DNA from: Escherichia coli
Lineage (GTDB): Bacteria; Pseudomonadota; Gammaproteobacteria; Enterobacterales; Enterobacteriaceae
Length of the DNA: 64,000 nt
Assembly: GCF_009931435.1 (NCBI RefSeq)
Contig: NZ_CP043414.1
Direction: 5' to 3' (one strand)
How positions within the stretch are numbered: the first letter of the stretch is position 1; every line of letters starts with the position of its first letter. Positions 5,667-14,823 of this stretch are shown here, in pieces. The notes under the pieces are model-generated. The model was not told the origin of the DNA and ran no database searches. It saw only the letters and a list, made by a program, of their open reading frames with translations. The position numbers and the translations under genes were made by a program.

Positions 5667-5738
5667 AATATTATGTTAACAGCATGTATATCATTTGGGG
5701 TTGCGATGACGACGAACACGCATTTTAGAGGTGAAGAA

Positions 5739-7424
5739 TTGAAGAAGGTTTGGCTTAACCGTTATCCCGCGGACGTTCCGACGGAGATCAACCCTGACCG
5801 TTATCAATCTCTGGTAGATATGTTTGAGCAGTCGGTCGCGCGCTACGCCGATCAACCCGCGTTTGTGAATATGGGGGAGGTGATGACCTTCCGCAAACTG
5901 GAAGAACGCAGTCGCGCGTTTGCCGCTTATTTGCAACAAGGGTTGGGACTGAAGAAAGGCGATCGCGTTGCGTTGATGATGCCTAATTTATTGCAATATC
6001 CGGTGGCGCTGTTTGGCATTTTGCGTGCCGGGATGATCGTTGTAAACGTTAACCCGTTGTATACCCCGCGTGAGCTGGAGCATCAGCTTAACGATAGCGG
6101 CGCATCAGCGATTGTTATCGTGTCTAATTTTGCCCACACTCTGGAAAAAGTGGTTGATAAAACCGCCGTTCAGCACGTTATTCTGACCCGTATGGGCGAT
6201 CAGCTATCCACGGCAAAAGGCACGGTAGTCAACTTCGTTGTTAAATACATCAAGCGTCTGGTGCCGAAATACCATCTGCCAGATGCCATCTCATTTCGCA
6301 GCGCACTGCATAACGGCTACCGGATGCAGTACGTCAAACCCGAACTGGTGCCAGAAGATTTAGCTTTCCTGCAATATACCGGCGGTACCACTGGTGTGGC
6401 GAAGGGCGCGATGCTGACTCACCGCAATATGCTGGCGAATCTGGAACAAGTTAACGCGACTTATGGGCCGCTGTTGCATCCGGGCAAAGAGCTGGTGGTG
6501 ACGGCACTGCCGCTGTATCACATTTTTGCTCTGACCATTAACTGCCTGCTGTTTATTGAACTGGGTGGGCAGAACCTGCTTATCACTAACCCGCGCGATA
6601 TTCCGGGGTTGGTAAAAGAGTTAGCGAAATATCCGTTTACCGCGATAACCGGCGTTAACACCTTGTTCAATGCGTTGCTGAACAATAAAGAGTTCCAGCA
6701 GCTGGATTTCTCCAGTCTGCATCTTTCTGCAGGCGGTGGTATGCCTGTTCAACAAGTGGTGGCTGAACGTTGGGTGAAACTGACCGGACAGTATCTGCTG
6801 GAAGGTTATGGCCTGACCGAGTGTGCGCCGCTGGTCAGCGTTAACCCGTATGATATTGATTATCATAGTGGTAGCATCGGTTTGCCGGTGCCGTCGACGG
6901 AAGCCAAACTGGTGGATGATGATGATAATGAAGTACCACCGGGTCAACCGGGTGAGCTTTGTGTCAAAGGACCGCAGGTGATGCTGGGTTACTGGCAGCG
7001 TCCGGATGCTACCGATGAAATCATCAAAAATGGCTGGTTACACACCGGCGATATCGCGGTGATGGATGAAGAAGGATTCCTGCGCATTGTCGATCGTAAA
7101 AAAGACATGATTCTGGTTTCCGGTTTTAATGTCTATCCCAACGAAATTGAAGATGTCGTCATGCAGCATCCTGGCGTACAGGAAGTCGCAGCTGTTGGCG
7201 TACCTTCCGGCTCCAGTGGTGAAGCGGTGAAAATCTTCGTAGTGAAAAAAGATCCATCGCTTACCGAAGAGTCACTGGTGACCTTTTGCCGCCGTCAGCT
7301 CACGGGCTACAAAGTACCGAAGCTGGTGGAGTTTCGTGATGAGTTACCGAAATCTAACGTCGGAAAAATTTTGCGACGAGAATTACGTGACGAAGCGCGC
7401 GGCAAAGTGGACAATAAAGCCTGA
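5739..7424 (+). CDS. fadD: Long-chain fatty acid--CoA ligase
   Basis: ORF 5673..7424; start set at in-frame TTG ([13 protein letters not shown]...) for 561 aa; AMP-binding motif [12 protein letters not shown]. Confidence 0.85.
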
Positions 7425-7493: not shown

Positions 7494-8621
7494 TTGAATT
7501 ACCAAATGATTACCACGGACGATGCGCTGGCTTCTTTGTGTGAAGCCGTCCGTGCCTTTCCGGCGATAGCCCTGGATACTGAATTTGTTCGTACGCGCAC
7601 CTATTACCCGCAACTGGGTCTAATTCAACTTTTTGATGGTGAGCATCTGGCGCTAATTGATCCTCTCGGGATCTCCGACTGGTCACCGCTGAAAGCGATA
7701 CTGCGCGATCAGTCCATCACAAAATTTCTCCATGCGGGCAGTGAAGATCTGGAAGTGTTCCTCAATGTCTTTGGCGAATTACCACAACCCCTGATTGACA
7801 CGCAAATCCTTGCTGCCTTCTGCGGACGCCCGATGTCATGGGGTTTTGCTTCCATGGTGGAAGAGTATTCCGGCGTTACGCTGGACAAGAGTGAATCGCG
7901 CACCGACTGGCTGGCCAGACCGCTGACTGAACGTCAGTGTGAATACGCAGCGGCGGATGTCTGGTATCTGTTACCGATCACCGCAAAGCTTATGGTAGAA
8001 ACGGAGGCCTCCGGCTGGCTACCTGCGGCGCTGGATGAATGCCGCCTGATGCAAATGCGTCGTCAGGAAGTCGTTGCACCGGAAGATGCCTGGCGTGATA
8101 TCACCAATGCCTGGCAGTTACGCACACGCCAGCTAGCCTGTTTGCAACTGTTAGCCGACTGGCGACTGCGCAAGGCGCGGGAGCGCGATTTGGCAGTGAA
8201 CTTTGTTGTGCGTGAAGAGCATTTGTGGTCGGTAGCACGTTATATGCCGGGAAGTCTTGGCGAACTGGATAGCCTGGGCTTATCCGGTAGCGAAATCCGC
8301 TTTCACGGTAAAACGCTGCTGGCGCTGGTGGAAAAAGCGCAGACATTGCCGGAAGAGGCCTTACCGCAGCCGATGCTTAACCTGATGGACATGCCGGGTT
8401 ATCGTAAAGCGTTTAAAGCGATTAAGTCGCTGATTACTGACGTGAGCGAAACACACAAGATCAGCGCCGAATTGCTGGCATCGCGTCGGCAAATCAACCA
8501 GCTGCTGAACTGGCACTGGAAACTGAAACCGCAGAACAATTTGCCGGAGCTGATTTCCGGCTGGCGTGGTGAGCTGATGGCGGAAGCATTACACAATTTA
8601 TTGCAGGAATATCCACAGTAA
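7494..8621 (+). CDS. rnd: Ribonuclease D
   Basis: 375-aa ORF MNYQMITTDDALASLCEAV...; DEDD 3-5 exonuclease plus HRDC architecture. Confidence 0.9.
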   Translation: MNYQMITTDDALASLCEAVRAFPAIALDTEFVRTRTYYPQLGLIQLFDGEHLALIDPLGISDWSPLKAILRDQSITKFLHAGSEDLEVFLNVFGELPQPLIDTQILAAFCGRPMSWGFASMVEEYSGVTLDKSESRTDWLARPLTERQCEYAAADVWYLLPITAKLMVETEASGWLPAALDECRLMQMRRQEVVAPEDAWRDITNAWQLRTRQLACLQLLADWRLRKARERDLAVNFVVREEHLWSVARYMPGSLGELDSLGLSGSEIRFHGKTLLALVEKAQTLPEEALPQPMLNLMDMPGYRKAFKAIKSLITDVSETHKISAELLASRRQINQLLNWHWKLKPQNNLPELISGWRGELMAEALHNLLQEYPQ

Positions 8622-8627
8622 AATCTT

Positions 8628-8670
8628 CCGAAGCCGGACTGGGCGCGCTCAGCGCCACATCCGGCTTCGG
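8628..8670. terminator. Stem-loop between convergent rnd and yeaX (possible bidirectional terminator)
   Basis: ccgaagccgg ... ccggcttcgg long inverted repeat; no clean U-tract on either strand. Confidence 0.35.
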
Positions 8671-8674
8671 CAAA

Positions 8675-9640
8675 CTACAAATCCAACACCAGGCGTTTAC
8701 CCTTCGCGCGTGAACAACAGATCAACATACTTTGCTGGCTGGCACGCTCTTCATCGCTAAAATACTGATCCCGATGGTCAGCTTCACCTTCCAGTATTGC
8801 CGTTTCGCAGGTTCCGCATACCCCTTCACGACATAAACATTCCACTTTCGCTGCTTTACTATTTTCAATAACCTGCAAAATAGTCATCTCTTCCGGCACC
8901 ACAAACTCTTTTCCGGAACGGGCAAGCACCAGCGTAAATGCATCGCCGGTTTTGTCTTCGATAGCAAATTGCTCAAAGTGCAGCGTATCGGTGGCGATGT
9001 CCAGACGCGCAGCTTCACTTCTTACCGCCTCATTTAGCGCCTCGGGGCCACAGGTATAAACATGTGTGCCAGGTTCGATATCCGCCAATAATCGCGCTAA
9101 TTCCAGTCGTGTTCCGGTTGATGAATGATGCAAATGGACTTTCTCGGCCTGCGGATGCTGGACTAGCTCATCACGAAATGCGCAACTTTCTGGATTTCGC
9201 GAGCAGTAATGTAACTGCCAGTCGACGTCGCTGTATTGCAACTCTGCCATGTGCGACAGGAAAGGGGTGATACCAATACCGCCCGCGATAAATAGATGCT
9301 TTCTGGCCGAGGGAATTAGCGCAAACAGATTATTAGGCGTCGAAATGGTCAACCGATCGCCTGCTTTCACCTGCTGATGCAAAAAGCGCGAACCACCGCG
9401 CGAGTTTTCTTCCAGCCGAACGGCAATCTGATAACGAGACGTATCGAGTGGCGAACTCAGCAGTGAGTACGCATTGCTGTACTGGTTATCACCATCGCTC
9501 ATCTGCACAATGATGTGACTTCCTCCAGTAAACGCAGGTAATGGTTTGCCATCGGTTGCCACCAGCGTGAAGCGTTTCACCTGTTCGGTAAGGGGGTCAA
9601 CCTGACTCACCTGTACTTCAAACATTTGATAGTCTGACAT
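8675..9640 (-). CDS. yeaX: Carnitine monooxygenase reductase subunit (FMN/2Fe-2S ferredoxin reductase, CntB-like)
   Basis: 321-aa ORF; C-terminal plant-type ferredoxin cysteine motif CREGVCGTCE. Confidence 0.85.
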   Translation of the reverse strand: MSDYQMFEVQVSQVDPLTEQVKRFTLVATDGKPLPAFTGGSHIIVQMSDGDNQYSNAYSLLSSPLDTSRYQIAVRLEENSRGGSRFLHQQVKAGDRLTISTPNNLFALIPSARKHLFIAGGIGITPFLSHMAELQYSDVDWQLHYCSRNPESCAFRDELVQHPQAEKVHLHHSSTGTRLELARLLADIEPGTHVYTCGPEALNEAVRSEAARLDIATDTLHFEQFAIEDKTGDAFTLVLARSGKEFVVPEEMTILQVIENSKAAKVECLCREGVCGTCETAILEGEADHRDQYFSDEERASQQSMLICCSRAKGKRLVLDL

Positions 9641-9695
9641 TGCTGTACTCCATCAAAAATCAGCCCAGCGGCGGAAAATACCGCCGCCGATGTCA

Positions 9696-10820
9696 TTAGT
9701 CCTTAAACACCTGCGCCAGCAGATTATGGAAATGGGCGATACCATGTTCGGAAATGCCACTACCGCTACTGTCGGCCATGATGCGCCCCTGACCACGGTA
9801 GCCACGCGATTTCAGCCCTTTCTGTACGCTTTCAACCAGACGTAAATCTTCCGGGCGGAACACATCGCGATACCACTCAATCAACGATTTTTGCTCGTCA
9901 GTTAACTCTTTATTGGTGAAGTAAATATCGTAGTTTTGCAGGGTGGTTTCAGAATCTACAGGGAATTCATAAATGACCGTCATCATCCCTTTGATCGGTG
10001 TGACGTTCAGCATGGTGCACGGCCACAGCCAGAAACCGTGGAATGCCGCATCCGTACCTTCTTCAAATTTAAAAGATTGTTCGGATGGTTTGGCAAAGCC
10101 GTATTGCAGCGTCCAGTTGCCGTGCATGGTGTGCCAGTAACGGTCAACCTGAACGGAGTCAGAAAAGCCTGGATGTGCCGGACCACAGTGATAGCACTCA
10201 AGATAGTTATCGACAATGTTCTTCCAGTTGGCAGGCGTGCGGGTGGTAAAGCGGGCCGCTAGTTTCAGATCGTGGACTTCCGGGCAGGCTTCCAGCACTT
10301 TTGCCCCCAGACCAGGTAACTGATCTTCCACGCTGGTGGCGTTAGGGTCCATGTTGATGAAGACGAATCCGGCATACTCTTCCAGACGCACCGGGACCAG
10401 TTGCGCTTTGTCGCTGTCGAAATTAGCGACGTTTTCGCAGTTACGCGCATGGGCCAGGTTGCCATCGAGTTTGAATGCCCAGGCGTGATACGGGCAGGTA
10501 ATCACATTTTTCGCTTTCCCTTCGCCGCTCAATAACTGATGACCACGGTGCGGGCAAACGTTATAGAACGCGCGCAAAACCTTATCACGACCGCGTACCA
10601 GAACAATGCTTTCGCCAATGATCTCACGCGTCACGTAATCATTGGCATTCACCAGTTCGCTATTGTGAGCGACGCAAATCCAGCTTTTGGCGAAGACGTT
10701 CTCTTTTTCATGTTCAAAGGCGTTCTGATCGGTATAGAAACGGGCCGGAATAGTCCATGCTTCTTGCGGGTTGGCGCAAAAATTTTCAGGTAGTACTAAG
10801 TCAGGGCTCAGATTGCTCAT
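9696..10820 (-). CDS. yeaW: Carnitine monooxygenase oxygenase subunit (Rieske non-heme iron oxygenase, CntA-like)
   Basis: 374-aa ORF; Rieske motif CPHRGHQ...CPYHAW. Confidence 0.9.
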   Translation of the reverse strand: MSNLSPDLVLPENFCANPQEAWTIPARFYTDQNAFEHEKENVFAKSWICVAHNSELVNANDYVTREIIGESIVLVRGRDKVLRAFYNVCPHRGHQLLSGEGKAKNVITCPYHAWAFKLDGNLAHARNCENVANFDSDKAQLVPVRLEEYAGFVFINMDPNATSVEDQLPGLGAKVLEACPEVHDLKLAARFTTRTPANWKNIVDNYLECYHCGPAHPGFSDSVQVDRYWHTMHGNWTLQYGFAKPSEQSFKFEEGTDAAFHGFWLWPCTMLNVTPIKGMMTVIYEFPVDSETTLQNYDIYFTNKELTDEQKSLIEWYRDVFRPEDLRLVESVQKGLKSRGYRGQGRIMADSSGSGISEHGIAHFHNLLAQVFKD

Positions 10821-10851
10821 AGGGATACCTTTATCGTTAGGATGATGGCGT

Positions 10852-12462
10852 TCAGTTGTCGCCTTTGAATACCGTTCCTGCCGGGATCAGCGGATTTTTT
10901 TCCGATGCTTCTACCGGTGTCTGCGGGAGATAATCTTCAACTTGATGAGCCGGGATATCGGCGTAATCCTGCTTCAGCCAGCGAATAAATCCACCGACTT
11001 TCACCAGTAAAATAACGAGGAAGGGCAGGGCTGTTAGTACCACAGTGGTTTTCATGGTTTCCAGCGATGCGCCAGTAAATAAGATAGACAGTGGGATCAG
11101 GGTGATCACCACGCACCAGAATAGGCGAAGACCACGGTCAGGGTCGTCACCTTCCTGAAGATTTCGCGTACTGGTCGCCGCCATAGTGTAGGCCACCGCA
11201 TCCATATGCGAGGCAAGGAAAATAATCATCACGCCCAGGTATGCGGCGAGGAATAATTTACCGGCTGGCAATGACATCAGAACTTGTTGAACGGCAGTTT
11301 CACCGCCCAACGTTTCCAGCACTTGCGGGACGTTGATCACGCCATTGATAAACTGATGAATAGCATAGCTTTCCATTACGCCGAAGAAGAACCAGCAGCC
11401 GACGGTGCTTCCGAGGATCAAGCCCCAAATAACTTCTTTGATCTTACGACCACGCGATACGCGAGTGACAAACATTGCTACGCCGGGCGTGTAAGAGATC
11501 CACCAGAGCCAGTAGAAAACGGTCCAGTTGCGGGTAAATAAACCATCGCCAAGTGGATCGGTAAATAAACTCATTTGCAGGAAGTTTTGGGTGGTCAGGC
11601 CGATGGCATTGATGATGCTGTTGGTAATAAATTCGGTTGGGCCGACAATCAGGACCAGCAATGGCAGAAGGAACGCCCCCCAGCCGACCATTTTGCTCAG
11701 ACGTTGCAAACCGTTGTTGATACCAATCCACGAGCTTAGGCAAAAAATGCCGCCGGAAAGCAGGATAACAAAAGCCTGAACGGTGAAGTTATCTGGTAAA
11801 CCGGTCAGTGCGGAAAGTCCACGAGTAAAGGTTGCGGCGGTGACGACCAGGGAAATAGTCAGCGCACCGACAGTGGCGATCAGGAACATCAAATCAACCA
11901 GTTTTCCCCACGGGCCTTGCGGACGAACGCCGGTAATAGCAGCAATAATGCCGGAAAGGCTCAGCCCTTTATTTTTCCGCACATGAAAGTGATAAGCCAT
12001 GATTAATGAGGCCAGCGTATAAGTTGCCCAGGCGCTGATGCCCCAGTGGAAGAAGGAGTAGGGAACGCTAAATTCGAGTGCCTGTTGTGAACGCGGTGCG
12101 ATATTTAATCCAGGCGTTTGATAATAATAGGCCCATTCAGCAACCCCCCAATAAAGCGTAGAAGAACCTAAACCTGCACAAATAAACATAAACAGCCAGG
12201 AGAGCGTGCTGTATTCCGGTTTTCCTTCGCCAAGACGAATATTGCCGTATTTACTGGTGGCTAAATAAATCACCAGTCCCATTGCCAGCAAAACCAATAC
12301 CTGTACGGCGGAACCTAACGTACGCGTGACAAAAGTGTATATAGCGTTGGCCGCGTCGGCCGATTGTTGTGGGAAAAGGCTTAATGCAGCTGCGATGAAA
12401 AGAATGGCCACCAGGCTGATGCTTATCAACGGCACATCTTTTTTCTTAACATTGCTCATCAT
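10852..12462 (-). CDS. yeaV: BCCT-family betaine/carnitine/choline transporter
   Basis: 536-aa ORF, multiple TM segments; true start may be an internal Met. Confidence 0.8.
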
Positions 12463-12663
12463 GAGTCATCTCCTGGGCATAAAAGCCCGTCTCTGGCTTT
12501 TGCCAGTTGTAATTATTTGCAGGGTATGAGTTGTATGTTGTGTTTAACAAATTGATTATTTACATGTTACATAAATTAAACAATTAAGAATACGGAAAGC
12601 CATAAAACACGAAACGGAAACAATAAAAGGTGAAATGACGCAGGTTATTTACTGCAAAGAACG

Positions 12664-12691
12664 AATAAAAAAACCGCGTCAGTGACGCGGT
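12664..12691 (-). terminator. Rho-independent terminator of dmlA
   Basis: On minus strand: accgcgtcactgacgcggt hairpin followed by T7. Confidence 0.65.
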
Positions 12692-12711
12692 TCAAATAAA
12701 CTGGTTTGACC

Positions 12712-13797
12712 TTAACGCAAAATAATTTTGCAAATCGCGTCGGCAACCTGTGGCGTGGTGGCATTGCCTTTCATATCAGGTGTTTTCGGACCGTGAGCAA
12801 TCACTTCTTCAATCGCGGCCAGAATACCGTTGTGTGCTTGCCGGAAACGCTCATCGCCATTGCCGAGGAAATCAAGCATCATTGCACCGGCCCAAATCGT
12901 GGCGATAGGGTTAGCAATATTTTTCCCGTAGATATCCGGCGCGGAACCGTGGACTGGCTCGAAGAGCGACGGGAAAGTGCGTTCCGGATTCAGGTTGGCG
13001 GATGGGGCAATGCCGATGGTGCCGGTGCAGGCCGGGCCAAGATCGGAAAGAATATCGCCAAACAAATTAGACGCCACCACCACATCGAAGCGTTCCGGCT
13101 GCATCACAAAACGTGCGCAGAGAATATCAATATGCTGCTTGTCCCAGCGGATCTCCGGGTAATTCTCAGCCATTGCTTCCACTCGCTCATCCCAGTACGG
13201 CATGCTGATGGCTAAACCGTTCGATTTAGTGGCAGAAGTTAGCGTCTTACGTGGGCGGCTTTGCGCAAGTTCAAAGGCATAGCGCAAAATACGATCGACA
13301 CCACGACGAGTAAATACCGATTCCTGAATGACGACTTCATGCTCTGTACCTTCATTCACTCTACCGCCGAGCGAGGAATATTCGCCTTCGGTGTTTTCCC
13401 TGACCACGTAAAAATCGATGTCGCCAGGCTGTTTTCCCGCCAGCGGGCAGGGAACGCCAGGAAAGAGACGAACCGGGCGCAGGTTGACGTACTGGTCGAA
13501 CTCACGACGAAATTTCAGCAGCGAACCCCACAACGAAATATGGTCCGGAACGGTATCCGGCCAGCCGACGGCACCAAAATAGATGGCGTCGAAACGGCTA
13601 AGTTGCTCATGCCAGTCGTCCGGCATCATTTTACCGTGATGGCTGTAATACTCGCAGCTCGCCCACTCCATTTGCTCAAAACTCAAGGCGAAGCCCCAGC
13701 GCTCAGCGGCAGCCTGTAACACGCGAATCCCTTCAGGAAGGACTTCTTTGCCAATCCCGTCTCCCGGGATCGCAGCAATACGCATCGTTTTCATCAT
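12712..13797 (-). CDS. dmlA: D-malate dehydrogenase (decarboxylating), isocitrate/isopropylmalate dehydrogenase family
   Basis: 361-aa ORF MMKTMRIAAIPGDGIGKEV... Confidence 0.9.
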   Translation of the reverse strand: MMKTMRIAAIPGDGIGKEVLPEGIRVLQAAAERWGFALSFEQMEWASCEYYSHHGKMMPDDWHEQLSRFDAIYFGAVGWPDTVPDHISLWGSLLKFRREFDQYVNLRPVRLFPGVPCPLAGKQPGDIDFYVVRENTEGEYSSLGGRVNEGTEHEVVIQESVFTRRGVDRILRYAFELAQSRPRKTLTSATKSNGLAISMPYWDERVEAMAENYPEIRWDKQHIDILCARFVMQPERFDVVVASNLFGDILSDLGPACTGTIGIAPSANLNPERTFPSLFEPVHGSAPDIYGKNIANPIATIWAGAMMLDFLGNGDERFRQAHNGILAAIEEVIAHGPKTPDMKGNATTPQVADAICKIILR

Positions 13798-13899
13798 TGG
13801 GTTCTCACTTCCTGACCATCAAAATTGACAATACCCTCATCCTATAATTGACTGAAAAGGAATTAATCCCCGTAACTGGTGAAACATAAAACACGAATC

Positions 13900-14823
13900 A
13901 TGAATAATTTACCGCTGCTGAACGATTTGCGCGTCTTTATGCTGGTGGCTCGCCGGGCTGGTTTTGCCTCCGTGGCAGAAGAATTGGGTGTTTCACCGGC
14001 TTTTGTCAGCAAACGCATTGCCTTGCTGGAACAAACGCTAAATGTGGTGTTGTTACACCGTACCACCCGCCGCGTCACTATTACCGAAGAAGGAGAGCGG
14101 ATTTATGAATGGGCGCAGCGGATTTTGCAGGATGTCGGCCAGATGATGGACGAGCTTTCTGACGTGCGTCAGGTGCCGCAGGGGATGTTGCGTATTATCA
14201 GCAGCTTTGGTTTTGGACGGCAGGTGGTGGCTCCGGCGTTATCGGCGTTGGCGAAGGCGTATCCGCAACTGGAGTTACGTTTTGATGTGGAAGACCGACT
14301 GGTCGATTTGGTCAATGAAGGTGTTGATCTCGATATTCGTATTGGTGATGACATTGCACCTAACTTAATCGCCCGCAAACTGGCGACCAATTACCGTATT
14401 CTCTGCGCATCGCCGGAATTTATTGCGCAATATGGCACGCCGAAACATTTAACCGACCTTTCTGCATTGCCGTGCCTGGTCATTAAAGAGCGCGATCATC
14501 CTTTTGGTATCTGGCAATTACGCAATAAAGAAGGCCACCATGCGATTAAAGTCACCGGCCCGCTGTCGTCTAATCATGGAGAAATTGTTCATCAGTGGTG
14601 TCTTGATGGTCAGGGGATTGCGCTACGCTCCTGGTGGGATGTCAGCGAAAATATTGCCAGTGGTCATTTAGTGCAAGTGCTACCGGAGTATTACCAGCCA
14701 GCAAATGTCTGGGCCGTTTATGTTTCAAGGCTGGCGACGTCAGCGAAAGTGCGGATAACGGTAGAATTTTTACGCCAGTATTTTGCCGAGCACTACCCGA
14801 ATTTTTCACTGGACCACGCCTGA
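13900..14823 (+). CDS. dmlR: LysR-family transcriptional regulator of dmlA
   Basis: ORF 13879..14823; start set at MNNLPLLNDLRVF; divergent from dmlA. Confidence 0.85.
   Translation: MNNLPLLNDLRVFMLVARRAGFASVAEELGVSPAFVSKRIALLEQTLNVVLLHRTTRRVTITEEGERIYEWAQRILQDVGQMMDELSDVRQVPQGMLRIISSFGFGRQVVAPALSALAKAYPQLELRFDVEDRLVDLVNEGVDLDIRIGDDIAPNLIARKLATNYRILCASPEFIAQYGTPKHLTDLSALPCLVIKERDHPFGIWQLRNKEGHHAIKVTGPLSSNHGEIVHQWCLDGQGIALRSWWDVSENIASGHLVQVLPEYYQPANVWAVYVSRLATSAKVRITVEFLRQYFAEHYPNFSLDHA

What the first reader, a model, noticed from the sequence alone, without database searches (positions are those of the whole stretch)
8675..12462. Carnitine-to-trimethylamine module yeaV-yeaW-yeaX
A BCCT transporter gene, a Rieske oxygenase gene (CPHRGHQ...CPYHAW) and a reductase gene with a ferredoxin motif (CREGVCGTCE) sit contiguously on the minus strand, a substrate-import-plus-two-component-oxygenase arrangement. 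It is known as the carnitine monooxygenase locus relevant to gut TMA production. The yeaV start codon is ambiguous.
Basis: partly seen in the sequence, partly recalled or inferred. Interest (0 to 1): 0.25.

Follow-up and report, generated by a model that had tools for sequence, protein, structure and literature searches.

The report
Known E. coli carnitine-to-trimethylamine gene cluster
This is the already characterised E. coli yeaV-yeaW-yeaX locus (a transporter plus the two-part enzyme that splits carnitine into trimethylamine), here in its intact form, whereas the laboratory strains K-12 and B have lost the front of the transporter gene.

Summary
Three contiguous minus-strand ORFs encode YeaX (8675-9640), YeaW (9696-10820) and YeaV (10852-12462).

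- **Identity:** RefSeq annotates the same genes in thousands of E. coli genomes. YeaW is 370/374 identical to the biochemically characterised K-12 enzyme and 72% identical to crystallised CntA. Every published metal ligand, bridging residue and substrate-pocket residue is present. This is an already known system of low interest.

- **yeaV start:** It is not ambiguous here. ATG at 12462 has an AGGAG 7 nt upstream, and Met-1 and the first transmembrane helix are conserved in Klebsiella, Serratia and Acinetobacter. The ambiguity comes from K-12 and BL21, which lack 224 bp (window 12335-12558). That deletion removes the predicted -10, leader, ribosome site and 43 codons.

- **Population:** About 54% of 5,426 complete E. 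coli genomes are intact, about 27% carry that deletion and about 19% lack the whole cluster.

- **Module size:** The functional unit is five genes, with dmlA and dmlR, as already published. E. coli lacks the cluster-encoded malic-semialdehyde dehydrogenase found in other genera.

- **Regulation:** A conserved 24-nt element occurs upstream of both yeaV and dmlA, which suggests common (DmlR?) control. This is untested.

The parts
8675..9640 (-). yeaX (cntB): NADH-dependent reductase, FNR-like flavin/NAD domains followed by a C-terminal plant-type [2Fe-2S] ferredoxin domain
   Evidence: ORF. Pfam FAD_binding_6, NAD_binding_1 and Fer2. Full-length match to phthalate dioxygenase reductase 2pia, E=6.6e-57. 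C270, C275, C278, C308 and docking residues R271, K313, D320 are present (residues defined in PMC9508527). 312/321 identical to K-12 YeaX.
9696..10820 (-). yeaW (cntA): Rieske-type carnitine monooxygenase, oxygenase subunit
   Evidence: ORF. Rieske + Ring_hydroxyl_A. 6y8j CntA E=1e-195. All 19 functional residues mapped from CntA are conserved. 370/374 identical to K-12 YeaW; 55 synonymous versus 4 non-synonymous codon differences.
10852..12462 (-). yeaV: full-length (536 aa) BCCT-family transporter, probable carnitine importer
   Evidence: NCBIfam NF007412 matched 1-536/536, 1028.7 bits against a cutoff of 647. Pfam BCCT covers residues 14-499. 53% identical to the characterised A. baumannii carnitine transporter (PMC6562126). 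The Trp/Tyr box is conserved, and the CaiT antiporter residues R262/M331 are replaced by Val.
12470..12474 (-). Shine-Dalgarno AGGAG, 7 nt upstream of the yeaV ATG (12462-12460)
   Evidence: Sequence read. AGGAG and the ATG are conserved in Klebsiella, Serratia and L005.
12335..12558 (.). 224-bp segment (+/-1) present here but deleted in K-12 MG1655 and BL21: part of the predicted -10, the whole leader, SD, ATG and codons 1-43 of yeaV
   Evidence: Three-way alignment. BL21 yeaV is flagged as a pseudogene 'missing N-terminus' by PGAP. The segment is found in 2930 of 5426 complete genomes, whereas yeaVW is found in 4373. Rows with 97% coverage in two pieces appear.
12555..12583 (-). Predicted yeaV promoter: -35 TTGTTT (12583-12578), 17-nt spacer, -10 AATAAT (12560-12555)
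   Evidence: Read from the sequence. The block is conserved between E. coli, L005 and both Klebsiella loci. It was not picked up by the consensus scan because the -35 matches only 3/6. This is a prediction only.
12601..12624 (-). Conserved upstream element ATTGTTTCCGTTTCGTGTTTTATG; its centre lies about 64 nt upstream of the predicted start of transcription; candidate LysR-type (DmlR) site
   Evidence: 19/24 identical to 13885-13908. The 13-mer TTCGTGTTTTATG occurs only at these two places in 64 kb, against 0.11 expected. It is conserved in the orthologous regions of Klebsiella, with the core conserved in Serratia.
12671..12693 (-). Intrinsic terminator of dmlA, separating it from the yeaVWX transcription unit
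   Evidence: 10-bp stem followed by a T-run. Fold -16.9 kcal/mol, z=-4.1.
9665..9690 (-). Stable hairpin plus U-run in the yeaW-yeaX gap, just 5' of the yeaX SD (GGAG 9651-9648); possible partial terminator or processing barrier
   Evidence: Terminator-like hit. Fold -26.2 kcal/mol, z=-4.6. A hairpin plus T-run in the same place, with different stem sequences, occurs in Klebsiella and L005; Serratia has the hairpin without a clear T-run.
8628..8670 (.). Long hairpin (REP-like) between the convergent yeaX and rnd genes; likely bidirectional terminator or mRNA stabiliser
   Evidence: Sequence. Fold -35.5 kcal/mol, z=-7.0.
   Evidence: Annotation. 71.5% identical to the A. baumannii D-malate dehydrogenase, whose role is shown in PMC11353897. 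Adjacent to the BCCT gene in all five orthologous loci.
13900..14823 (+). dmlR: divergent LysR-type regulator, orthologue of A. baumannii CarR
   Evidence: Annotation. 45.6% identical to the Acinetobacter regulator. Divergent from the Iso_dh gene in all loci.
13885..13908 (-). Second copy of the conserved element, in the dmlR-dmlA divergent control region, overlapping the dmlR start codon
   Evidence: Conserved in E. coli, L005, Klebsiella and Serratia, and partly in Acinetobacter.

Best explanation
The locus is the E. coli carnitine monooxygenase operon in its intact, ancestral form.

**Proposed mechanism**
1. YeaV, a 12-helix BCCT transporter, imports L-carnitine. This is inferred from 53% identity to the characterised Acinetobacter carnitine importer and from a conserved aromatic box.
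2. [quoted passage not shown]
3. From there the electron crosses the subunit interface via Glu208 to the mononuclear iron (His211, His216, Asp325).
4. That iron activates O2 and oxidises carnitine next to the quaternary nitrogen, which releases trimethylamine and malic semialdehyde. These steps are shown experimentally for E. coli YeaW/YeaX and for CntA/CntB; here they are supported by complete residue conservation.
5. Malic semialdehyde would be oxidised to D-malate by an unlinked aldehyde dehydrogenase. The literature proposes GabD; this step is inferred.
6. D-malate is then decarboxylated to pyruvate by the adjacent DmlA.

**Transcription**
yeaVWX is its own transcription unit behind the dmlA terminator. 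It probably runs from an activator-dependent promoter (-35 TTGTTT, -10 AATAAT). A conserved upstream element is shared with the dmlR/dmlA control region, so DmlR is the likely activator. This is inferred and untested.
For: Gene calls and annotation.

**Oxygenase**
- E=1e-195 to the CntA crystal structure.
- All 19 functional residues conserved (residue roles from PMC7948474 and PMC9508527).
- 370/374 identical to K-12 YeaW, whose activity, cofactors and inhibition were measured (PMC9508527).

**Reductase**
- Phthalate-dioxygenase-reductase architecture.
- Four cluster cysteines and three docking residues present.

**Transporter**
- Equivalog-level NCBIfam hit over the full length.
- N-terminus and Met-1 conserved in four other genera or lineages.
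- Trp box kept and CaiT-specific R262/M331 absent, as in the Acinetobacter importer (importer function in PMC6562126).

**Selection**
- Synonymous to non-synonymous codon differences against K-12 are 55:4 (yeaW), 94:6 (yeaV) and 28:9 (yeaX).

**Cluster context**
- The order LysR | Iso_dh | BCCT | CntA | (Aldedh) | CntB is conserved in Klebsiella, Serratia and Acinetobacter.
- The pathway carnitine -> malic semialdehyde -> D-malate -> pyruvate was reconstituted in PMC11353897.

**Regulation**
- dmlA terminator.
- Promoter block and shared element.
Against: - No expression or activity data exist for this strain.
- PMC11353897 found no condition with substantial cntA transcription in public E. 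coli expression data. It also found no carnitine monooxygenase activity in BL21 extract and no growth of BL21, B or K12 on carnitine. All of those strains carry the 224-bp deletion, so these results may not transfer to the intact allele.
- The cluster lacks the malic-semialdehyde dehydrogenase gene that sits between cntA and cntB in other genera, so complete catabolism is uncertain.
- The YeaV substrate has never been measured directly. An untargeted metabolomics screen, presumably with the truncated K-12 gene, gave a broad and non-specific substrate list (PMC10971958).
- The predicted promoter has a poor -35, and the shared element shows no clear LysR-type dyad.
- About 46% of complete E. coli genomes have lost the integrity of the locus.
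Confidence: 0.9

Rival explanations
1. The enzyme's main physiological substrate in E. coli is gamma-butyrobetaine (the end product of E. coli's own anaerobic Cai pathway) or another quaternary amine, rather than carnitine. The product would then be succinic semialdehyde, which E. coli's succinate-semialdehyde dehydrogenases can handle. That would explain why no malic-semialdehyde dehydrogenase gene is kept in the cluster.
For: - CntA turns over carnitine and gamma-butyrobetaine and was crystallised with both (PMC7948474).
- YeaW/X was reported to be promiscuous towards gamma-butyrobetaine, carnitine, choline and betaine (summarised in PMC5433236).
- The aldehyde dehydrogenase gene is absent from the E. 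coli-type cluster but present in Klebsiella, Serratia and Acinetobacter.
Against: - The cluster keeps dmlA and dmlR next to yeaVWX, and D-malate arises only from carnitine, not from gamma-butyrobetaine (PMC11353897).
- The whole carnitine-binding pocket, including the residues that contact the 3-hydroxyl and carboxylate, is unchanged from CntA.
- The two substrates are not mutually exclusive.
Confidence: 0.2
2. In E. coli the module is a decaying remnant that is essentially silent in vivo. At most it trims intracellular carnitine pools, and it contributes little to TMA production.
For: - Only about 54% of 5,426 complete genomes keep the intact locus. About 27% carry the 224-bp deletion of the promoter and 5' end, and about 19% have lost the whole cluster, leaving dmlR/dmlA stubs.
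- Occasional IS insertions and fusions occur.
- No expression or growth phenotype was found in the laboratory strains, and PMC11353897 proposes a carnitine-homeostasis role for clusters lacking msadh.
Against: - Codon differences are overwhelmingly synonymous, and every catalytic residue is intact.
- The promoter region, leader hairpins and SD are conserved from E. coli to Klebsiella.
- The negative experiments used only strains with the deletion.
- E. coli SE11, which is listed as confirmed to make TMA from carnitine (PMC6200775 Table 1), has the intact 536-aa yeaV and full upstream region.
Confidence: 0.25
3. YeaV is a CaiT-like substrate:product antiporter (for example carnitine in, TMA or gamma-butyrobetaine out) rather than an ion-coupled importer.
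For: E. coli CaiT is among the solved relatives, E=3e-69. NCBIfam's CaiT model scores 343 bits, below its cutoff of 541.
Against: - Val stands at the positions of CaiT Arg262 and Met331 in both YeaV and the energy-dependent Acinetobacter importer. From my own knowledge of the CaiT structures, those two residues replace the coupling ions.
- The YeaV-specific equivalog model fits far better (1028.7 bits).
- The closest solved relative is DddT, not CaiT.
Confidence: 0.07

Closest known systems
E. coli K-12 YeaW/YeaX carnitine monooxygenase (Piskol et al. 2022, PMC9508527)
   Same: Same genes at the same chromosomal position between rnd and dmlA. YeaW is 370/374 identical and YeaX 312/321 identical. 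All cofactor ligands and docking residues are identical.
   Different: The nucleotide sequence of yeaV-yeaW is an uncommon allele, at most 94.6% identical to any of 5,426 complete genomes, against about 98% for the surrounding 25 kb. The exact proteins are nevertheless on record from other E. coli assemblies. The upstream gene yeaV is intact here but truncated in K-12.
Acinetobacter baumannii carnitine degradation cluster carR-mdh-bcct-hyd-cntA-msadh-cntB (PMC11353897, PMC6562126, PMC7948474)
   Same: Five orthologous genes in the same order and orientation. Identities are 45.6% (regulator), 71.5% (D-malate dehydrogenase), 52.6% (transporter), 72.2% (oxygenase) and 52.2% (reductase). The catalytic and substrate-binding residues are the same.
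   Different: E. coli lacks the acylcarnitine hydrolase and the malic-semialdehyde dehydrogenase genes. A terminator and a separate promoter region lie between the dehydrogenase and transporter genes (249 nt against 20 nt). Growth on carnitine has not been shown for E. coli.
Klebsiella / Serratia cntA clusters
   Same: Same order LysR | Iso_dh | BCCT (535-536 aa) | CntA | ... | CntB. In Klebsiella the BCCT promoter block, leader hairpins, SD and the hairpin in front of cntB are conserved; in Serratia only the GTGTTTTAT core, SD, ATG and a cntB hairpin are.
   Different: These clusters keep a 482-aa aldehyde dehydrogenase gene between cntA and cntB. In E. coli and the related L005 lineage it is cleanly absent, and only the hairpin-plus-SD segment remains.
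E. coli CaiT carnitine/gamma-butyrobetaine antiporter
   Same: BCCT fold and a conserved aromatic box for the trimethylammonium group.
   Different: The CaiT-specific Arg262 and Met331 are both Val in YeaV. YeaV fails the CaiT equivalog cutoff (343 bits against 541).

Membership tests
Carnitine monooxygenase oxygenase subunit CntA/YeaW (group V Rieske oxygenases) | Rieske [2Fe-2S] ligands Cys-X-His ... Cys-X-X-His | tested here: met
   C89, H91, C109 and H112 are present. They map to CntA C86, H88, C106 and H109.
Carnitine monooxygenase oxygenase subunit CntA/YeaW (group V Rieske oxygenases) | Mononuclear iron 2-His-1-carboxylate triad | tested here: met
   H211, H216 and D325 are present. Ligand roles are from PMC9508527.
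Carnitine monooxygenase oxygenase subunit CntA/YeaW (group V Rieske oxygenases) | Bridging glutamate (rather than aspartate) between the Rieske centre and the iron of the neighbouring subunit, with the flanking cysteine pair | tested here: met
   E208, C209 and C212 correspond to CntA E205, C206 and C209 (PMC9508527, PMC10952381).
Carnitine monooxygenase oxygenase subunit CntA/YeaW (group V Rieske oxygenases) | Carnitine pocket: pi-cation Tyr plus polar and hydrophobic residues (CntA Y203, Y225, F258, N270, Y295, Y315, F319) | tested here: met
   All seven are identical in YeaW: Y206, Y228, F260, N272, Y297, Y317 and F321. Residue roles are from PMC7948474.
Carnitine monooxygenase oxygenase subunit CntA/YeaW (group V Rieske oxygenases) | O2- and NADH-dependent cleavage of L-carnitine to TMA and malic semialdehyde | not testable with these tools
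   Shown for the K-12 protein, which differs at 4 of 374 residues, none of them a functional residue (PMC9508527).
CntB/YeaX reductase (phthalate dioxygenase reductase type) | N-terminal flavin and NAD(H) domains followed by a C-terminal plant-type [2Fe-2S] domain with four Cys ligands | tested here: met
   Pfam FAD_binding_6 (9-103), NAD_binding_1 (117-207) and Fer2 (240-313). Full-length match to 2pia. C270, C275, C278 and C308 are present.
CntB/YeaX reductase (phthalate dioxygenase reductase type) | Docking residues shown by mutagenesis (R271, K313, D320) | tested here: met
   All three are present (PMC9508527).
BCCT transporter, YeaV equivalog | Full-length match to the family model above the curated cutoff, including the first transmembrane helix | tested here: met
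   NF007412 matched 1-536/536, 1028.7 bits against a cutoff of 647. Hydrophobic segments lie at residues 7-35 and 47-73. The N-terminus is conserved in orthologues.
BCCT transporter, YeaV equivalog | Aromatic box for quaternary ammonium | tested here: met
   W140, W145, Y148, W320, W321 and Y324 align with the CaiT box.
BCCT transporter, YeaV equivalog | Carnitine transport | not testable with these tools
   Shown only for the 53%-identical Acinetobacter protein (PMC6562126). There is no direct assay of full-length YeaV in the papers searched.
CaiT-type substrate:product antiporter | Arg262 and Met331 standing in for the coupling ions; CaiT equivalog score | tested here: not met
   V259 and V328 stand at those positions. 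NF002887 scores 343 bits against a cutoff of 541.
Complete carnitine catabolic cluster (A. baumannii type) | LysR regulator and D-malate dehydrogenase adjacent to the transporter and oxygenase genes | tested here: met
   dmlR is at 13900-14823 and dmlA at 12712-13797.
Complete carnitine catabolic cluster (A. baumannii type) | Malic-semialdehyde dehydrogenase gene between cntA and cntB | tested here: not met
   Only 55 nt separate yeaW and yeaX. The 482-483-aa Aldedh gene is present in L004, L006, L007 and L008 but not here or in L005.
Complete carnitine catabolic cluster (A. baumannii type) | Acylcarnitine hydrolase gene | tested here: not met
   No esterase ORF lies between yeaV and yeaW; the gap is 31 nt. 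Among the loci examined it is present only in Acinetobacter.

The most novel reading that the evidence does not exclude
The intact locus may behave differently from what K-12 and B strains have led the field to believe. This reading has three parts.

1. yeaVWX would be a DmlR-activated operon. The 24-nt element at 12601-12624, about 64 nt upstream of the predicted start, would be the operator shared with dmlA.
2. The operon would form a carnitine/D-malate regulon with dmlA. Natural isolates that carry the 224-bp segment would then import and cleave carnitine aerobically, and perhaps grow on it using an unlinked semialdehyde dehydrogenase.
3. The negative expression and growth results from BL21, B and K12 would be explained by the deletion, which removes the -10, leader, ribosome site and first 43 codons of yeaV.

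If so, metagenomic counts of cntA in E. coli should be split by this allele.
Probability: 0.25. Interest if true: 0.35.

Novelty: already known. Interest (0 to 1): 0.12.

Why it matters
Carnitine monooxygenase is one of the recognised microbial routes to trimethylamine, the precursor of TMAO, which is linked to cardiovascular risk. E. coli is a major carrier of cntA/yeaW in gut gene surveys. The locus itself holds no surprise. The practical point is that E. coli comes in three states: intact, 224-bp deletion of the yeaV promoter and 5' end, and whole-cluster deletion. The laboratory strains used for negative in-vivo experiments and for YeaV transporter screens all carry the truncated gene. Presence of cntA alone is therefore a poor proxy for function, and K-12 data on YeaV should be read with caution.

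Tried and rejected
- **Not E. coli:** the 5.5-kb region was at best 96.4% identical to any E. coli genome, which raised this possibility. It was rejected. The 25-kb flanks are about 98% identical with full synteny, and the exact proteins are on record as E. coli. The lower identity is confined to a mosaic stretch in yeaV-yeaW and to dmlR.
- **Consensus sigma-70 scan:** it found no minus-strand promoter upstream of yeaV. The promoter proposed here rests on cross-genus conservation instead.
- **Rfam scan of 8400-14100 at E<=1:** only two sub-threshold chance hits, so there is no known riboswitch or sRNA in the leader or the gaps.
- **LysR-type T-N11-A dyad in the shared element:** a weak dyad (5/8) in the dmlR/dmlA copy and none in the yeaV copy, so the DmlR assignment remains an inference.
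- **Primary papers:** I tried to read Zhu et al. 2014 and Lukas et al. 2010 (DmlR). Neither is held, so SE11's phenotype is cited second-hand from PMC6200775. That table also lists BL21, DH10B and K12 as positive. For K12 the cited source used only its DNA as a qPCR standard. The basis for BL21 and DH10B could not be checked.
- **CaiT-like antiport for YeaV:** rejected on residues and model scores.
- **No structure prediction or large metagenome scan was run:** crystal structures and characterised orthologues already answer the question.

Full report
**1. What is there**

The ORF table shows three consecutive minus-strand ORFs at exactly the coordinates given:
- 8675-9640, 321 aa
- 9696-10820, 374 aa
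- 10852-12462, 536 aa

The gaps between them are 55 nt and 31 nt. Megablast against 5,426 complete E. coli genomes finds the region in essentially all of them, annotated rnd | yeaX | yeaW | yeaV | dmlA. The neighbourhood is fadD, rnd on one side and dmlA, dmlR, leuE on the other, which is the standard E. coli arrangement. The window as a whole is E. coli chromosome, about 98% identical and fully syntenic to the nearest complete genomes.

**2. The enzyme**

The 374-aa protein has Rieske and Ring_hydroxyl_A domains. It matches the crystal structure of A. baumannii CntA (6y8j) at E=1e-195 over its whole length.

Using the residue assignments of Piskol et al. 2022 for E. coli YeaW/YeaX (PMC9508527) and Quareshy et al. 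2020 for CntA (PMC7948474), I checked each position:

| Role | Residues in this YeaW |
|---|---|
| Rieske ligands | C89, H91, C109, H112 |
| Bridging residue | E208 |
| Iron ligands | H211, H216, D325 |
| Cysteine pair | C209, C212 |
| Pocket residues | Y206, Y228, F260, N272, Y297, Y317, F321 |
| Proposed docking residues | R83, K104, K117 |

All of them are present. The protein differs from the characterised K-12 YeaW at four residues, none of them functional.

The 321-aa protein has the flavin/NAD/Fer2 architecture of phthalate dioxygenase reductase. It carries C270, C275, C278 and C308 plus R271, K313 and D320.

Codon differences against K-12 are overwhelmingly synonymous: 55:4, 28:9 and 94:6 for yeaW, yeaX and yeaV.

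**3. The transporter and its start**

- YeaV matches the NCBIfam YeaV equivalog over 1-536/536, at 1028.7 bits against a cutoff of 647. The Pfam BCCT domain starts at residue 14.
- The ATG at 12462 has AGGAG (12474-12470) 7 nt upstream.
- Met-1, the KKKD motif and the first hydrophobic helix are conserved in the orthologues from a close relative (L005), K. pneumoniae and Serratia. They are alignable with the characterised A. baumannii carnitine importer (PMC6562126).

So the start is not ambiguous in this sequence. The ambiguity has a concrete origin. K-12 MG1655 lacks 224 bp (window 12335-12558, +/-1) that are present here and in most E. coli. K-12's 481-aa annotation starts at a TTG equivalent to codon 56, inside the second helix. 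In BL21 the same gene is flagged by PGAP as a pseudogene 'missing N-terminus'.

YeaV keeps the aromatic box. It has Val at the two positions that (from my knowledge of CaiT) make CaiT an ion-independent antiporter, as does the Acinetobacter importer. I therefore read YeaV as an importer, not a CaiT-like exchanger.

**4. Population states**

Counts come from three searches of the same 5,426 genomes:
- yeaV-yeaW is present in 4,373 genomes.
- The 224-bp segment is present in 2,930 genomes.
- Rows spread down the ranking show three classes: 100% coverage; 97% coverage in two pieces (the 224-bp deletion); and about 24% coverage with only rnd plus stubs of the LysR and dehydrogenase genes.

This gives roughly 54% intact, 27% with the 5' deletion and 19% with the whole cluster gone.

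Rarer lesions also exist: an IS3 insertion in yeaW, a yeaW-to-dmlA deletion and a dmlA::yeaW fusion ORF (P0043). Complete genomes over-sample laboratory and clinical lineages, so the percentages are indicative only.

**5. The module is five genes, as already published**

Piskol et al. 2024 (PMC11353897) describe the E. coli cluster as carR, mdh, bcct, cntA, cntB. It lacks the hydrolase and the malic-semialdehyde dehydrogenase of A. baumannii. They also show the route carnitine -> malic semialdehyde -> D-malate -> pyruvate.

My identities reproduce theirs for four of the five proteins: 45.6%, 71.5%, 72.2% and 52.2%. The transporter is 52.6% against their 56%.

| Locus | Gene order |
|---|---|
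| K. aerogenes, K. pneumoniae, Serratia | LysR, Iso_dh, BCCT, CntA, Aldedh (482 aa), CntB |
| A. baumannii | as above, plus an esterase |
| L005 (90% YeaW identity, flanked by rnd and fadD) | E. coli arrangement, without Aldedh |

The E. coli yeaW-yeaX gap retains the hairpin, U-run and SD segment that precedes cntB in Klebsiella. This fits a clean loss of the dehydrogenase gene.

**6. Transcription signals (inferred)**

- dmlA ends in a good intrinsic terminator at 12693-12671, so yeaVWX needs its own promoter.
- The 110 bp upstream of the leader are strongly conserved between E. coli, L005 and both Klebsiella species. They contain TTGTTT, 17 nt, then AATAAT (12583-12555). This is a plausible activator-dependent promoter.
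- Its -10 is cut by the K-12 deletion.
- Upstream of the promoter, the 24-mer at 12624-12601 is 19/24 identical to 13908-13885 in the dmlR/dmlA divergent region.
- The shared 13-mer occurs nowhere else in the window, against 0.11 expected. Both copies are conserved across genera.
- The centre of the yeaV copy lies about 64 nt upstream of the predicted start. That is the usual place for a LysR-type recognition site (general knowledge of the family).

I found no paper that links DmlR to yeaVWX. This is a hypothesis and not a result.

The 86-nt leader, the yeaW-yeaX hairpin and the yeaX-rnd hairpin all fold much better than shuffled controls. None matches an Rfam family.

**7. In-vivo function**

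PMC11353897 reports no growth of BL21, B or K12 on carnitine, no activity in BL21 extract and no evident expression in public data. It suggests a different physiological role in E. coli. All three strains carry the deletion.

E. coli SE11 is listed as confirmed to convert carnitine to TMA (PMC6200775 Table 1). It has the intact 1,611-bp yeaV and the full 250-nt upstream region.

This correlation is suggestive but weak. The same table also lists BL21, DH10B and K12. For K12 the cited source used only its DNA as a qPCR standard. The basis for BL21 and DH10B could not be checked, and I could not read the primary paper.

**8. Verdict**

The finding is correct and already known. The added points are all modest, and most are already implicit in database annotation or the 2024 paper:
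- The start is resolved.
- The deletion in laboratory strains is described.
- The E. coli population falls into three locus states.
- The aldehyde dehydrogenase gene has been lost from the E. coli cluster.
- A candidate regulatory element is shared by the yeaV and dmlA control regions.

Interest is low.

Noticed in passing
window 9700-12000: The yeaW and 3' yeaV DNA is an uncommon allele. It is at most 94.6% identical to any of 5,426 complete E. coli genomes, and to 89-93% in some 250-bp windows. The adjacent yeaV 5' end, the intergenic region and dmlA are 99-100% identical to some genomes. This mosaic pattern suggests an old recombination import. The proteins are almost unchanged, and the exact sequences are seen on only 17-18 contigs.
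   Followed up: partly
window 8675-13900 (whole cluster), compared with e.g. NC_017651.1: About 19% of complete E. coli genomes (e.g. 'clone D i2') have lost yeaX-yeaW-yeaV and most of dmlA/dmlR. Only annotated stubs remain ('LysR family transcriptional regulator', 'tartrate dehydrogenase') between rnd and leuE. One strain has a different deletion, running from inside yeaW to the dmlR start.
   Followed up: partly
window 9641-9695; L004/L006 9593-9649; L005 8126-8195; L007 9622-9662: A stable hairpin immediately 5' of the reductase gene's ribosome-binding site is kept at the same place in E. coli, L005, Klebsiella and Serratia. A T-run follows it in all but Serratia. The stem sequences differ, so the structure is conserved rather than the sequence. 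It might set the oxygenase:reductase expression ratio.
   Followed up: partly
window 8628-8670: A very stable 12-bp-stem hairpin (-35.5 kcal/mol, z=-7) with a REP-like sequence (GCCGGATG...) fills the 53-nt gap between the convergent yeaX and rnd genes.
   Followed up: no
protein P0043 (E. coli, 472 aa): A database protein combines an Iso_dh domain with Rieske and Ring_hydroxyl_A domains and is 99% identical to YeaW over 80% of its length. It is apparently a dmlA::yeaW fusion created by deletion of yeaV in some E. coli.
   Followed up: no
hit H5, NZ_CM128596.1 (strain 100117): An IS3-family transposase interrupts yeaW in this genome; yeaW is annotated twice.
   Followed up: no
window 5673-7424 and 7494-8621: The longest ORFs for fadD (583 aa from ATG 5673) and rnd (375 aa from TTG 7494) are longer than the RefSeq annotations in the closest genomes (fadD 1,686 bp; rnd 1,116 bp). 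K-12 annotates rnd at 1,128 bp. These are ordinary start-codon annotation differences.
   Followed up: no
L004 4590-5355 and L006 4903-5356 (Klebsiella): The dehydrogenase-transporter intergenic region is expanded to 454-766 nt in Klebsiella by GC-rich palindromic repeat units (GCCGGGTAAGGCGCAGCCGCTACCCGG-like). These lie upstream of the conserved promoter block.
   Followed up: no
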